Part shown: one piece after another, positions 8,777 to 37,984 of the stretch
Numbering within the stretch: the stretch's first letter is position 1
How the letters are laid out: every line of letters begins with the position of its first letter
From: Candidatus Parcubacteria bacterium
Lineage (GTDB): Bacteria > Patescibacteriota > Minisyncoccia > UBA6257 > 2-01-FULL-56-20
Direction of reading: 5' to 3'
NCBI GenBank assembly: GCA_041169145.1
Contig: JBEEJO010000003.1
Location: forward strand, 1-39,671
DNA: 39,671 bases
The notes under the pieces: generated by a model
What the model saw: the letters and a program-made list of their open reading frames with translations, nothing else
Databases searched by the model: none
Told to the model about the DNA's origin: nothing
Made by a program: the position numbers and the translations under genes

Positions 8777-8969
8777 TTATGAAATTCTTTTAGCTTGTAA
8801 TCGACCTCGTATAATAAGAAGCAAAGCCCAGCTCATTAGTTTGAGTTTGTGGCATAAGCTGTCGTAGGGTTTCTTGCGAACGTTATCACGCATGCAATTT
8901 ATGCCTATTAGCTCAAAATATCAAGCGCTAATTTTGCCACCTCTTTTCTGATGTGAGTGGGGGACTCGA

Positions 8970-9074
8970 ACGTCGCCACGCTATTGCGTGGCTCTCTCAA
9001 AACCCTCGGTTTTGAGTCCGTTTCGCTCATTCCTCCACGGGGAACCGGTCGCGGTTCCCCGACCCCCTCCACTG
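8970..9074 (-). repeat. Three-hairpin structured element, copy A
   Basis: Minus strand GGGGTCGGGGAACCG-CGAC-CGGTTCCCCGTGGAGGA...CTCAAAACC-GAG-GGTTTTGAG...GCCACGC-AATA-GCGTGGC-GACGT; same architecture as 37812-37910. Confidence 0.75.
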
Positions 9075-9094
9075 TTCGAATCCCTCTCCTGCGC

Positions 9095-9136
9095 AAAAAG
9101 ATACGCTCCATCCCAAGGATGAAGCGTATCTTTTTT
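9095..9136 (-). terminator. Terminator downstream of tRNA-Leu
   Basis: 13-bp perfect arms AAAAAGATACGCT / AGCGTATCTTTTT. Confidence 0.7.
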
Positions 9137-9139
9137 GTG

Positions 9140-9223
9140 TGCCCAGGGAGGGACTCGAACCCTCAAGGCCGTGAGGCCACACGATTTTGAGTCGTGCACG
9201 TATACCAGTTCCGTCACCTAGGC
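9140..9223 (-). tRNA. tRNA-Leu(CAA)
   Basis: GCCTAGG/CTGGGC acceptor stem, anticodon arm CACGA-CTCAAAA-TCGTG, long variable arm, GGTTCGAGTCC T-arm; CCA not encoded. Confidence 0.95.
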
Positions 9224-17711: not shown

Positions 17712-17783
17712 GCGCCCTTAGCTCAGTGGTAGAGCGTCACATTGACATTGTGAAGGCCGTAGGTCCGATCCCTACAGGGCGCA
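17712..17783 (+). tRNA. tRNA-Val(GAC)
   Basis: GCGCCCT/AGGGCGC acceptor stem, TAGCTCAGTGGTAGAGC D-arm, TCACA-TTGACAT-TGTGA anticodon arm, T-loop TCCGATC; no CCA. Confidence 0.9.
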
Positions 17784-17858
17784 CAAAGGTGAGGGATCGA
17801 GCGCCGTGGTCGCCGGTACAAGATGGAATGGGCGCGAAGAAATTGAGGATGAAGAGTG

Positions 17859-17946: not shown

Positions 17947-18021
17947 GGGCACGTAGTTCAGTGGTAGAACGCGTTCCTGATAAGAACGAGGCCGAAGGTT
18001 CGATTCCTTCCGTGCCCACCA
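17947..18021 (+). tRNA. tRNA-Ile(GAT)
   Basis: GGGCACG/CGTGCCC acceptor stem, CGTTC-CTGATAA-GAACG anticodon arm, GGTTCGATTCC T-arm, encoded CCA. Confidence 0.96.
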
Positions 18022-36576: not shown

Positions 36577-37803
36577 ATGGCAAAAACGAAATCAGCAAAA
36601 CCGAGGCGCGAGCGGCCGCAATCGTCCCTTTCGCCGCTTGTCATTAAGGTCGTCGGCATCGGTGGCGGCGGCGGGAACGCCGTTGCGCGCATCAGCAAAG
36701 AATTCGTCCGTGGCGTTGAGTTCATCGCCATTAATACGGACCACCAAGACCTTGATTACTGCGAGGTTCGTCGGAAAGTCTACATCGGCAAGAATTTGAC
36801 GCATGGCCTTGGTACCGGCATGAATCCCGAGCTTGGGCGCCAGGCTGCGGAGGAAAATCGTTCGGAGATCGCGGAGGCATTGAACGGCGCCGATCTCGTA
36901 TTTCTTGCCGCGGGTCTCGGCGGCGGCACCGGTTCGGGCACGACGCCCATCGTTGCGGAAGTGGCAAAACAGATGGGAGCGCTCACGCTCGCATTCGTCA
37001 CGAAGCCTTTTACGTTCGAGGGAAGTCAGCGACAGCGCATTGCGGAGGACGCGCTCGTAAAACTTAAAGACAAGGTGGATGCATTGATCGTTGTTCCGAA
37101 CGACCGCATTTTCACTATCATCAGCAAAGAGACGCCTATTCTCAAGGCATTCGAGGCTATAGACGATGTGCTGCGGAACGCCCTTATGGGCCTTGTAGAG
37201 CTCATCGTGACGCCGGGCATCGTGAACGTCGATTTCGCGGACGTGCGCGCCGTGGTGCAGGACGCCGGTTCGGCCATCGTCGGTATCGGCGTCGCGTCGG
37301 GCCAGGACCGTGCGGTCCAGGCCGTGAATCAGGCATTGAACTCTCCGCTCTTGGAAGTGAATCCGGAGGGCGCGACCGGAGTTCTTCTCGGTATTTCCGG
37401 CGGGCGCGATATGCGCATGCAGGAGATCAGTGAAGCGGCGAAGATCGTCGCGCAGACCATCGACCCGTCTGCTCGCATCATTTTTGGTGCATATCACGAC
37501 CGGAAGATGAAACCGAACCAGTTGAAGATAACGCTCATCGCCACAGGCTTCGGAAATACGGGCTCTTCGGCGTCGCTCTTCGGCGAAGGCAAGGGATTCT
37601 TCGGCGGGCGCAGTCCGGTGTTTCCGGCCGAGGAAATGAAAGCGCGCGAAGAAGGGAAGGGCAAACAACCGGAGGAGCTCCTGTTCGTGAAAAAAGAGAA
37701 ACCCGTTGATTCGGCAGAAAAAGAAGAGAAGGGGAAGGAGAACAAAAAGACCGACGCGGACGCCTGGGACATACCTACCTTTCTGCGGAGAAAGAAGAAG
37801 TAG
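36577..37803 (+). CDS. ftsZ: Cell division protein FtsZ
   Basis: GGGGGNA, GGGTGSG signature, NVDFAD T7 loop, C-terminal DIPTFLR peptide. Confidence 0.98.
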   Translation: MAKTKSAKPRRERPQSSLSPLVIKVVGIGGGGGNAVARISKEFVRGVEFIAINTDHQDLDYCEVRRKVYIGKNLTHGLGTGMNPELGRQAAEENRSEIAEALNGADLVFLAAGLGGGTGSGTTPIVAEVAKQMGALTLAFVTKPFTFEGSQRQRIAEDALVKLKDKVDALIVVPNDRIFTIISKETPILKAFEAIDDVLRNALMGLVELIVTPGIVNVDFADVRAVVQDAGSAIVGIGVASGQDRAVQAVNQALNSPLLEVNPEGATGVLLGISGGRDMRMQEISEAAKIVAQTIDPSARIIFGAYHDRKMKPNQLKITLIATGFGNTGSSASLFGEGKGFFGGRSPVFPAEEMKAREEGKGKQPEELLFVKKEKPVDSAEKEEKGKENKKTDADAWDIPTFLRRKKK

Positions 37804-37811
37804 ATAGGTCA

Positions 37812-37910
37812 CAGCGGGAAAGGGGTCGGGGAAACGGGAGTTTCCCCGTGGCGGAGCACACGAACCGATGGGTTCGTGGGAGCGGCTTGCTGTATGGCGA
37901 GCCGCGACGT
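37812..37910 (+). repeat. Three-hairpin structured element, copy B
   Basis: GGGGTCGGGGAAAC-GGGA-GTTTCCCCGTGGCGGA..CACGAACC-GATG-GGTTCGTG..GCGGCTTGC-TGTATG-GCGAGCCGC-GACGT. Confidence 0.75.
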
Positions 37911-37948
37911 GGGACATACCTACCTTTCTGCGACGTAAAAAGAAGTAA
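37910..37948 (+). repeat. Direct repeat of the ftsZ 3' end
   Basis: 23-bp identity to 37765-37787, then synonymous codons for RKKK and a stop. Confidence 0.9.
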
Positions 37949-37956
37949 GAGCAGAT

Positions 37957-37984
37957 GATAACGCCCCGCATGCGGGGCGTTATC
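37957..37984. terminator. Probable bidirectional terminator between ftsZ and rmuC
   Basis: Perfect 28-bp palindrome GATAACGCCCCGCATGCGGGGCGTTATC. Confidence 0.7.

What the first reader, a model, noticed from the sequence alone, without database searches (positions are those of the whole stretch)
37765..37948. Unnamed three-hairpin element, present twice, wedged between duplicated 3' ends of essential genes
Seen: 37812-37910 (+) and 8970-9074 (-) share the order GGGGTC, stem 1, TGG(A/C)GGA, stem 2, GA, stem 3, GACGT. Stems differ in sequence but keep pairing: stem 1 GGGGAAAC/GTTTCCCC vs GGGGAACCG/CGGTTCCCC; stem 2 CACGAACC/GGTTCGTG vs CTCAAAACC/GGTTTTGAG; stem 3 GCGGCTTGC/GCGAGCCGC vs GCCACGC/GCGTGGC. 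In both copies the terminal GACGT runs straight into a second copy of the 3' part of the upstream essential gene (23 bp of ftsZ; 11 bp of the tRNA-Leu T-arm). Inference: structure is under selection. It could be a non-autonomous single-strand-folded integrative element mobilised in trans, or a scaffold plus 3' guide RNA, as in the TnpB omegaRNA layout. No cognate enzyme is encoded in the window.
Basis: partly seen in the sequence, partly recalled or inferred. Interest (0 to 1): 0.85.

Follow-up and report, generated by a model that had tools for sequence, protein, structure and literature searches.

The report
Small structured insert duplicating gene ends
A roughly 100-base folded DNA/RNA module without any gene of its own sits hundreds of times in ultra-small (Patescibacteria) bacteria at the ends of tRNA and other essential genes, each time carrying a spare copy of the gene end, which looks like a new kind of mobile element that finds its targets by sequence matching.

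Summary
The two window copies (37800-37932 +, 9084-8961 -) belong to a family with 11-12 copies in this genome. A covariance model finds about 500 copies in 93 of 125 genomes of the family and in 13 of 150 other Patescibacteria. No Rfam family matches, and none was found in viral contigs.

Each copy has a conserved core of three hairpins. Covariation supports it: 96% of cells paired, 0 of 500 shuffles as good.

Targets are 17 tRNA identities, tmRNA, the 3' ends of ftsZ, rpmG, uvrB, fusA and rpsI, and the 5' ends of lepA, bipA and fusA. Duplicated coding ends differ by synonymous changes, congeners have an empty ftsZ site, and units occur in tandem.

Best reading: a protein-less insertion cassette that replaces gene ends and integrates across a short stretch identical to the target. 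The enzyme is unknown. No RT, TnpB, IS110 or Y1 transposase is in the genome, and serine recombinases do not co-occur with the element. The TnpB-like reading is not supported.

The parts
36577..37803 (+). ftsZ ORF (408 aa), the target gene of copy 1; stop codon TAG at 37801-37803
   Evidence: ORF list. C-terminal WDIPTFLRRKKK*. Orthologous ftsZ ends in four congeners.
37765..37787 (+). X1: 23-nt stretch of ftsZ that recurs exactly after the core
37788..37803 (+). Last codons of the working ftsZ copy (RRKKK*). On the integration model this is the gene end brought in by the element.
   Evidence: 5 of 16 nt differ from 37933-37948, all synonymous. Which copy is native is not settled; codon use resembles G027/G028.
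37800..37810 (+). X': antisense arm, complementary to 9 of 11 nt inside X1/X2; overlaps the ftsZ stop codon
   Evidence: Read. Weakest arm pairing of the family (arm duplex -12 kcal/mol).
37816..37909 (+). Conserved core. J1 37816-37827, hairpin 1 37828-37847, J2 37848-37858, hairpin 2 37859-37878, GGA, hairpin 3 37882-37905, GACG 37906-37909.
   Evidence: Covariance model hit 37810-37910, 103 bits, E 1.3e-26. Covariation.
37910..37932 (+). X2: sense arm, an exact second copy of X1 and the 3' strand of the closing helix
37933..37948 (+). Displaced second end of the ftsZ reading frame (RRKKK*, TAA)
37957..37984 (+). Terminator hairpin. It is homologous to the one that directly follows ftsZ in the empty-site congener G028.
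9139..9223 (-). tRNA-Leu(CAA), the target gene of copy 2; X1 is its T-loop stretch 9160-9150
9095..9136 (-). T1: 19-bp hairpin between the tRNA and the element (-27.5 kcal/mol)
   Evidence: All 7 element-bearing tRNAs of the genome have such a hairpin (mean -23.8 kcal/mol), against a mean of -10.1 for the 37 others.
9074..9084 (-). X': antisense arm, complementary to the T-loop stretch (11 pairs, one of them U-G)
8972..9073 (-). Conserved core, type B. J1 9073-9061, hairpin 1 9060-9039, J2 9038-9017, hairpin 2 9016-8996, AGA, hairpin 3 8992-8975, GAC 8974-8972.
   Evidence: Covariance model hit 8970-9078, 71 bits, E 7.6e-18.
8961..8971 (-). X2: sense arm, an 11-nt T-loop copy. The sequence after it no longer matches tRNA-Leu.

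Best explanation
This is a family of protein-less insertion cassettes of about 150-220 bp that live at the termini of highly conserved genes in Patescibacteria. One unit has three parts in order. First comes a spare copy of the target gene's terminal segment (X plus the rest of the gene end). For tRNAs this is followed by a strong terminator hairpin, T1. Second comes an antisense arm X'. Third comes a conserved core of about 95-125 nt with three hairpins and purine-rich joints. The unit sits inside the gene end. The gene therefore stays intact by reading the spare end, and the original end is pushed behind the core as a direct repeat (X2). X' pairs with X to close the core into a four-way junction, so each copy carries its target's sequence on both sides of the core.

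I infer that integration happens by recombination across X, a stretch of 11-29 nt (sometimes about 60 nt) identical to the target. The most likely routes are host homologous recombination on DNA taken up from relatives, or a trans-acting enzyme not yet identified. I also infer that the core works as a folded single strand (RNA or ssDNA) of the same strand as the arms, and that this is what selection keeps.

Shown: the anatomy, the covariation, the spread, the empty site, the foreign origin of one of the two gene ends, and exchange of cores between species and between targets. Inferred: the circular or linear intermediate, the recombination machinery, and what the core does.
For: Family and structure: the covariance model hits 93 of 125 family genomes, about 500 hits and up to 15 per genome, and 13 of 150 other genomes of the phylum. 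A pattern scan of 185,579 species gave at least 120 stretches; 69 of the 80 listed carry Patescibacteria-type names. Hairpins 1 and 2 show 96.4% paired cells, 11 of 16 pairs changed on both sides, and 0 of 500 shuffles as good. Hairpin 1 has 11 G-U against 0 A-C, and hairpin 3 has a recurrent U-G. Cognate arms pair better than non-cognate arms (median -21.1 against -13.6 kcal/mol, 91 copies).

Target ends: of 86 copies away from locus edges, 65 follow a same-strand tRNA (17 identities, median 58 nt). Of those 65, 52 repeat the tRNA's last 11-22 nt. Other targets are tmRNA, the 3' ends of ftsZ, rpmG, uvrB, fusA and rpsI, and the 5' ends of lepA, bipA and fusA on the other strand.

Insertion: G028 has a single ftsZ end followed by the same terminator, and 4 of 4 congeners lack the core at ftsZ.

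Foreign gene end: ftsZ has 5 of 5 differences synonymous. rpmG has 8 differences, 7 synonymous and one V/I. bipA has 3 of 3 synonymous.

Units in tandem, each with its own T1 and X'. T1 hairpins occur at all 7 element-bearing tRNAs of G000.

Core exchange: the cores of G000 tRNA-Tyr and G028 tRNA-Glu are 99% identical, while their T1 and outer arms are unrelated and the genomes are about 81% identical at ftsZ.
Against: No excision circle or empty-site allele was seen in the four DNA runs; these were contigs only. No RNA data exist. No promoter-like site precedes either window copy. Arms decay in an old orthologous copy (G000 against G028 tRNA-Ala), and mismatches in the closing helix show no clear G-U excess (16 G-U against 11 A-C), so pairing of the arms is not visibly maintained after insertion. 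How a new matched pair of arms arises is unexplained. Identical cores at different targets could reflect gene conversion between resident copies rather than movement. For ftsZ, codon use of the upstream copy resembles the congeners, so which copy is foreign is not settled. The alignment used for covariation was fitted to the model for 14 of the 16 pairs. At three gene 5' ends the element's sense strand is antisense to the gene, which is awkward for a co-transcribed RNA.
Confidence: 0.55

Rival explanations
1. It is a host ncRNA gene in many copies whose closing helix happens to be built from neighbouring gene-end sequence. It spreads only passively, together with conserved flanks, and its function is cellular, for example tied to tRNA or mRNA 3' ends.
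For: There is strong RNA-like covariation, G-U pairs, a recurrent U-G, and insertions tolerated in the loop of hairpin 1. Cores are conserved about as well as the flanking coding DNA in orthologous copies (G011/G009). The ftsZ copy lies between the stop codon and the terminator, so it would be co-transcribed. Precise loss through the direct repeats should be easy, so persistence suggests a benefit.
Against: Distribution is patchy: 32 of 125 family genomes have no hit, and copy number runs from 1 to 15. The set of occupied tRNAs differs between congeners. Cores are 99% identical between species that are about 80% identical. Gene ends are duplicated with synonymous divergence. tRNA-linked copies lie behind a terminator and no promoter was found. 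Three copies are antisense to their gene.
Confidence: 0.22
2. It is a satellite or remnant of integrase elements: a miniature attP-bearing element moved in trans by the large serine recombinases (or tyrosine integrases) of bigger elements that integrate at the same T-loop site.
For: The direct repeat runs from the T-loop to the tRNA 3' end, as for integrase att sites. In G002 a 569-aa serine recombinase gene runs straight into X'-core-X2. Its 91-93% identical relatives abut a reversed tRNA broken at the same point. Such recombinases are common in the family (84 of 125 genomes), and the own genome's copy also abuts a reversed tRNA.
Against: There is no co-occurrence: both present in 64 genomes, element only in 29 (160 copies), recombinase only in 20, neither in 12; odds ratio 1.3, p 0.52, and kin are not independent. 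Only 1 of 30 recombinase loci holds the core motif. One conserved core serves more than 20 different targets, whereas integrases are site-specific. The G002 arrangement can be explained by recombination between inverted X copies.
Confidence: 0.12
3. It is the guide RNA of an RNA-guided nuclease or recombinase (TnpB/IscB omega-RNA-like, or an IS110 bridge-RNA-like scaffold with guide) whose protein is encoded elsewhere.
For: The layout is a conserved scaffold flanked by target-matched segments. The arms differ with the target while the scaffold is constant.
Against: The 92%-complete genome has no Cas12f1-like_TNB, DEDD_Tnp_IS110, Y1_Tnp or RVT_1 match. No recurrent neighbouring protein appears around 86 and 84 copies. 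The two arms are complementary to each other rather than free. The target site survives insertion, so homing-type cleavage would hit the carrier itself.
Confidence: 0.06

Closest known systems
Integrative elements at tRNA/tmRNA 3' ends (att duplication) and their integrase-less derivatives (CIME-like elements)
   Same: Both insert in the T-loop-to-3'-end part of tRNA and tmRNA genes. Both carry a replacement gene end, so the gene survives. The original end is left as a direct repeat, and tandem insertions occur at one site.
   Different: The unit is only 150-220 bp and never has an integrase beside it. One conserved structured core goes with more than 20 different targets, including protein-gene 3' and 5' ends. 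An extra antisense arm is present. There is no co-occurrence with serine recombinases. The comparison with CIMEs rests on recalled knowledge.
TnpB omega-RNA / IS200-IS605 right end
   Same: A structured scaffold is followed directly by a segment matching the target.
   Different: The genome has no TnpB and no Y1 transposase. The scaffold does not overlap a nuclease ORF. The 3' segment is paired with a 5' arm and continues as a whole spare gene end. The target is duplicated, which IS200/IS605 insertion does not do (recalled).
IS110 bridge RNA
   Same: A non-coding structured module carries target-matched segments on both sides and is reprogrammable in principle.
   Different: There is no DEDD transposase. 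The arms here cover the same target stretch and pair with each other, instead of two internal loops reading target and donor (recalled). The element is not bounded by IS ends.
Folded single-strand recombination sites (integron attC, CTX-phage attP(+))
   Same: Structure is conserved more than sequence. A helix made from two inverted segments could mimic the double-stranded target. There is strand asymmetry (G-U 11 against A-C 0 in hairpin 1).
   Different: No integron integrase core-site pattern is present. Targets are gene ends, not attI or dif. Only one Xer-like tyrosine recombinase is in the genome. A single-stranded intermediate has not been shown.
Homing introns and inteins in conserved sites of essential genes
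   Same: Both choose highly conserved sequence in essential genes (T-loop, GTPase G1 motif, FtsZ C-terminal peptide) and leave gene function intact.
   Different: Function is kept by duplicating the gene end, not by splicing. There is no homing endonuclease and no Rfam intron or ribozyme match.

Membership tests
Any Rfam 15 family | Covariance-model score at or above the family's gathering score | tested here: not met
   Only tRNAs pass in the window. At E up to 10 the three copies tested draw unrelated weak hits far below threshold. The best over a core is mir-1275 at 20.4 bits against 71; the hairpin ribozyme scores 12.4 against 65.
TnpB/IS200-IS605 omega-RNA | A TnpB (RuvC plus zinc-ribbon) gene overlapping or next to the scaffold | tested here: not met
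   PF07282 gives 0 matches in the own genome, which is 91.6% complete. No recurrent ORF lies beside 86 and 84 copies.
TnpB/IS200-IS605 omega-RNA | A Y1 (HUH) TnpA, and insertion without target duplication | tested here: not met
   PF01797 gives 0 matches. Target ends are duplicated in 52 of 65 tRNA-linked copies.
IS110 bridge RNA | A DEDD/IS110 recombinase encoded with the RNA | tested here: not met
   PF01548 gives 0 matches in the own genome.
Retron / reverse-transcriptase-linked ncRNA | A reverse transcriptase gene | tested here: not met
   PF00078 gives 0 matches in the own genome.
Integrase-type integrative element at tRNA genes | A direct repeat running from the T-loop (or anticodon loop) to the tRNA 3' end and flanking the insert | tested here: met
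   52 of 65 tRNA-linked copies meet this. The repeat covers the last 11-22 nt and ends within 2 nt of the tRNA end in 32 of the 52.
Integrase-type integrative element at tRNA genes | An integrase gene inside the element, or co-occurring with it | tested here: not met
   No integrase lies inside any unit. A serine recombinase sits beside 1 copy only. The genome-level 2x2 table is 64/29/20/12, p 0.52.
Integrase-type integrative element at tRNA genes | Empty and filled alleles of the same site | tested here: met
   For ftsZ, G028 aligns to both flanks with one gene end and the same terminator. tRNA loci were uninformative because the flanks are rearranged.
MITE | The element's own terminal inverted repeats plus a short fixed-length target duplication | tested here: not met
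   The inverted arms are copies of the target and differ from copy to copy. The repeat length varies from 11 to about 60 nt.
Self-cleaving ribozyme classes | A conserved catalytic core, and cleavage activity | not testable with these tools
   No Rfam ribozyme model matches. Cleavage at the core/X2 boundary was not assayed.

The most novel reading that the evidence does not exclude
This is a nucleic-acid-guided mobile element that needs no protein of its own. A folded strand of about 170 nt, possibly circular, has a closing helix (X'/X) that presents a copy of the target. Its conserved four-way-junction core recruits a general host enzyme, or itself catalyses strand exchange. The element can therefore be re-aimed at any conserved gene end simply by changing two short arms. 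It would be a natural, minimal, programmable DNA-insertion system and a DNA-level counterpart of viroid-like parasites.
Probability: 0.12. Interest if true: 0.95.

Novelty: categorically new. Interest (0 to 1): 0.82.

Why it matters
If the reading holds, Patescibacteria carry an abundant class of tiny structured elements found across the phylum. These elements colonise the most conserved sequences of a cell (tRNA T-arms, tmRNA, translation GTPases, FtsZ, ribosomal proteins) without harming them, using target-matched arms instead of a site-specific protein.

That would add a new principle to the list of ways DNA moves. It would explain part of the scarce intergenic DNA of these minimal genomes and some of their tRNA-locus rearrangements. 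It would also offer a very small scaffold for programmable insertion.

Even on the more modest reading, it is an uncatalogued, strongly covarying RNA family with about 500 copies in 125 genomes, and it should be added to RNA family databases and to annotation pipelines. At present its copies break assemblies and create spurious ORFs.

Tried and rejected
TnpB/IscB-like guide, IS110 bridge RNA, retron and Y1 transposon: no matching protein domain in the own genome.

Serine recombinase as the cognate enzyme: suggested by one locus but rejected as a general link.

Phage origin: two pattern scans of viral contigs found nothing.

Neighbouring-gene screens: the only recurrent 'proteins' are false ORFs that read through the core, or target genes such as fusA.

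Own promoter: none found before either window copy. A TATGAT-like box before X' in a few copies is not general (read).

Expression: no RNA holder is listed.

Excision: the contigs of four DNA runs show no joint that skips or circularises the element. They do show about 8-fold depth over the core and contigs that break there.

Empty sites at tRNA loci: congeners and genus g5 relatives have rearranged or unalignable flanks, so only ftsZ gave a clean empty site.

Strand test on the closing helix: 16 G-U against 11 A-C, not informative.

Idea that T1 is the native terminator and only X'-core-X2 was inserted: weakened, because strong hairpins follow all 7 element-bearing tRNAs but few others and tandem units each carry their own T1.

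Idea that similar cores within G000 prove recent transposition: weakened by evidence for core exchange or conversion bounded in the T-loop arms.

Literature: five full-text searches returned nothing describing such an element. I saw only the listings and abstract starts, plus the outline and abstract of one preprint on tRNA mimics, which concerns other Rfam families. Supplementary files were not consulted.
Full report
What is in the window. Two copies of one element are present.

Copy 1 lies on the + strand directly behind ftsZ (ORF 36577-37803). Copy 2 lies on the - strand behind tRNA-Leu(CAA) (9223-9139) and a 19-bp hairpin (9136-9095).

These are a G-rich joint ending in GGGGTC, hairpin 1, GTGG(C/A)GGA, hairpin 2, a short purine joint, hairpin 3, and GAC(G). 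A copy of the upstream gene's end follows.

Each copy folds better than all 200 shuffles (z -4.9 and -4.4). The reverse strands fold as well or better, so folding energy alone does not give the strand.

I add two features. First, an antisense arm (X', 37800-37810 and 9084-9074) lies just 5' of the core. It is complementary to the repeated gene-end segment, so arm plus repeat close the three hairpins into a four-way junction. Second, the ftsZ repeat does not stop after 23 nt. It goes on as a second complete end of the reading frame (WDIPTFLRRKKK*), with 5 differences in 16 nt, all synonymous.

How large the family is. A strict motif found a third copy in the same genome. A profile search found 11 copies and the covariance model 12. 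Seven of the 44 tRNA genes scored in G000 are directly followed by an element. At least two further copies lie at contig ends or are diverged.

A covariance model built from 20 copies (A5, R1) hits 93 of 125 genomes of the same family at E up to 0.001. There are about 500 hits, between 1 and 15 per genome. It also hits 13 of 150 genomes sampled from the rest of the phylum, in several families.

Of the 80 listed, 69 carry Patescibacteria-type names (Paceibacterota, Parcubacteria, their candidate phyla, and 'Saccharibacteria' labels). Seven are unnamed 'bacterium' records and 4 carry other labels.

Two scans of viral contigs found nothing. Rfam 15 has no family for the element. Only tRNAs pass the gathering score. 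The low-score hits differ from copy to copy, as chance hits do. Five literature searches found no description (listings and abstract starts only).

Structure. On 105 hits, 94 of them distinct (A6), the 16 pairs of hairpins 1 and 2 form standard pairs in 96.4% of cells. Eleven pairs change on both sides, in 252 cells. None of 500 column shuffles and none of six slid registers comes close. One caveat: the alignment was fitted to the model for 14 of these pairs.

Single positions switch cleanly. Examples are G-C 55 / A-U 36, A-U 60 / C-G 32, and four pair types at two positions of hairpin 2.

Hairpin 1 holds 11 G-U and 0 A-C cells, and hairpin 3 has a recurrent U-G (33 cells). This points to the strand that carries the arms as the folded one.

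Hairpin 3 varies from a 2-bp GCGAAGC-type mini-hairpin to 10 bp with unrelated sequences. The loop of hairpin 1 accepts a 30-nt extra hairpin in one species and in a metagenome contig. The joints (GGGAAAGGGGUC, GUGGNGGA, GCGAC) are nearly invariant across the phylum.

Two core types exist. Type A is the ftsZ copy. Type B is the tRNA-Leu copy, which has an extra GAGCGAAGCGGA-like insert.

The closing helix is specific to each copy. Cognate arms give a median duplex energy of -21.1 kcal/mol, against -13.6 for arms taken from other copies (91 copies). At least 29 of the 91 copies have GA in place of the T-loop UC at the start of X2. This puts a tandem G-A/A-G opposite the arm.

Where it sits. Of 86 distinct copies not cut by a locus edge, 65 lie behind a same-strand tRNA gene. 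Seventeen amino-acid identities are represented. The median distance from tRNA end to core is 58 nt, with quartiles 51 and 64. Of the 65, 52 repeat the tRNA's last 11-22 nt after the core, and the repeat ends within 2 nt of the tRNA end in 32 of those 52.

In a second, broader sample, 47 of 84 copies follow a tRNA, contig-edge cases included.

X' is the reverse complement of the tRNA from position 53 outward for 10-19 nt. X2 starts at the same point.

The remaining copies sit at other conserved termini:
- the tmRNA 3' end;
- the 3' ends of ftsZ, rpmG (L33), uvrB, fusA (8 loci) and rpsI (3 loci);
- on the opposite strand, the 5' ends of lepA, bipA and fusA, at the GTPase G1-motif codons;
- a few terminator hairpins.

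Gene names for the protein targets come from my reading of the translated ends, not from a family search. In every case the gene body is on the X' side and the displaced gene end on the X2 side.

Evidence that it is an insertion carrying a spare gene end.

(i) The congener G028 aligns to both flanks of the ftsZ copy. It has a single gene end, followed after 11 nt by a terminator homologous to the one that follows X2 in the window. The other three congeners also lack the core at ftsZ.

(ii) The two copies of a coding end differ almost only at synonymous sites: ftsZ 5 of 5, rpmG 7 of 8 plus V/I, bipA 3 of 3. Both copies therefore evolved as working gene ends, which means in different genomes, and one of them came in with the element.

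(iii) Units occur in tandem behind one tRNA, and each unit has its own hairpin and X'.

(iv) In G000, all 7 tRNAs scored as element-bearing are followed by a long perfect hairpin (mean -23.8 kcal/mol), against a mean of -10.1 for the other 37. At least two of the six strong exceptions turn out to be element loci at contig ends or diverged copies. The hairpin therefore travels with the element. Its likely role is to stop the tRNA transcript before X', which would otherwise pair with the tRNA's own 3' part.

(v) Where the hairpin after X2 is present, it is similar or identical to T1.

Evidence for exchange. The core behind tRNA-Tyr in G000 and the core behind tRNA-Glu in G028 are 99% identical, from the T-loop complement in X' to the T-loop part of X2. 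They even share a one-base deletion in that T-loop copy. Their hairpins and the outer parts of the arms are unrelated and match their own tRNAs. The two genomes are about 81% identical around ftsZ.

The G000 tRNA-Ala core is 95% identical to a copy at a different tRNA in another genus. For 74 of 94 copies the nearest core lies in another genome.

So cores move, or are converted, between species and between targets, with joints in the conserved T-loop sequence. This weakens my earlier inference that similar cores inside G000 prove recent transposition.

The enzyme question. No protein gene recurs next to the element in two screens (about 950 ORFs around the first set, and ORFs within 2.5 kb around 84 further copies). 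The top clusters are false ORFs through the core, or target genes.

The own genome (91.6% complete) has no RVT_1, Cas12f1-like_TNB, DEDD_Tnp_IS110 or Y1_Tnp match. It has one Xer-like tyrosine recombinase and one large serine recombinase that abuts a reversed tRNA.

One locus in G002 looked like an autonomous form: a 569-aa serine recombinase gene runs straight into X'-core-X2. Its 91-93% identical relatives, however, run instead into a complete reversed tRNA-like gene, and they diverge exactly at the X'/core boundary. Only 1 of 30 recombinase loci has the core. Across the 125 genomes there is no association (64 both, 29 element only with 160 copies, 20 recombinase only, 12 neither). I read the G002 case as a rearrangement between inverted X copies, or as an integration into X'.

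Mechanism, with shown and inferred steps marked. Shown: the unit's anatomy, target-identical X, the foreign origin of one gene end, tandem units, an empty site, and core exchange.

Inferred: integration occurs by a crossover inside X, between a unit (linear with the gene body as the long arm, or circular) and the resident gene. This reproduces every observed arrangement. Host homologous recombination on DNA taken up from relatives is the simplest agent. A trans-acting recombinase, or a folded single-strand intermediate in which X'/X mimics the target duplex, remains possible.

What the conserved core does is unknown. Precise loss through the direct repeats should be easy, so the core must either raise transmission or pay its way as an RNA.

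How a new matched X/X' pair arises is not explained. For tRNAs, crossovers in the shared T-loop sequence, followed by correction of the X1-T1-X' quasi-palindrome, are a possibility.

Limits. No expression data exist. The DNA runs are contigs and show neither empty alleles nor circles. The closing helix decays in an old orthologous copy.

Noticed in passing
L028:3923-5632 (G002:C13); L030, L031: A 569-aa large serine recombinase ORF stays open through X', the whole core and into X2. Its 91-93% identical relatives in G014 and G051 read instead across a complete reversed tRNA-like gene. Such recombinases are found in 84 of 125 family genomes, with up to 11 matches per genome.
   Followed up: yes
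L007, L010, L016, L115 (between the tRNA/tmRNA-like gene and X'): An extra long hairpin module with a conserved CTCTCGGC...GCCTCCGAGA inner part replaces the simple T1 hairpin in some copies. It is possibly a second structured element family.
   Followed up: no
L079 (G028:C2, hairpin 1 loop); metagenome contig in run X3 at window 37836/37837: A roughly 30-nt extra hairpin is inserted in the loop of hairpin 1. It shows compensating differences between the two sources, so it looks like an optional peripheral domain.
   Followed up: partly
window 37816-37847 and family alignment A6: The joint GGGAAAG resembles the 5' strand of hairpin 1 and could pair with the same 3' strand. The variants GGGAAAA and GUUUUCCC appear together in some copies. 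This is a possible alternative pairing or switch.
   Followed up: no
many copies (e.g. L014, L021, L024, L114, L133; the type B joint in window 9030-9017 has a related form): GCG(A/G)AGC mini-hairpins recur, either as the minimal hairpin 3 or as an insert in type B cores. From memory, this motif is known as an unusually stable DNA mini-hairpin, which may hint at a single-stranded DNA stage.
   Followed up: no
window 37810-37911 in runs X1-X4: Summed contig depth over the core is about 8 times that of the ftsZ flanks in X1 (99 against 11.5), and contigs break inside the core. The repeat fragments assemblies of these organisms.
   Followed up: partly
window 17712-17784 and 17947-18021: tRNA-Val(GAC) and tRNA-Ile(GAT) in the same window carry no element and no strong downstream hairpin (-10.2 and -8.8 kcal/mol).
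   Followed up: yes
G000:C2:9532-11250 (L074): The genome's only large serine recombinase gene is followed by sequence that translates as ...GRDSNPR..., the signature of a tRNA gene on the opposite strand. This is the same convergent recombinase/tRNA layout as in G014 and G051.
   Followed up: partly
window 36592-37971 (-) and ORFs through cores in many loci: Long false ORFs run antisense to ftsZ and through the G-rich core (translations such as ...GRGNGSFPVAE...). Gene callers may annotate these as hypothetical proteins.
   Followed up: partly
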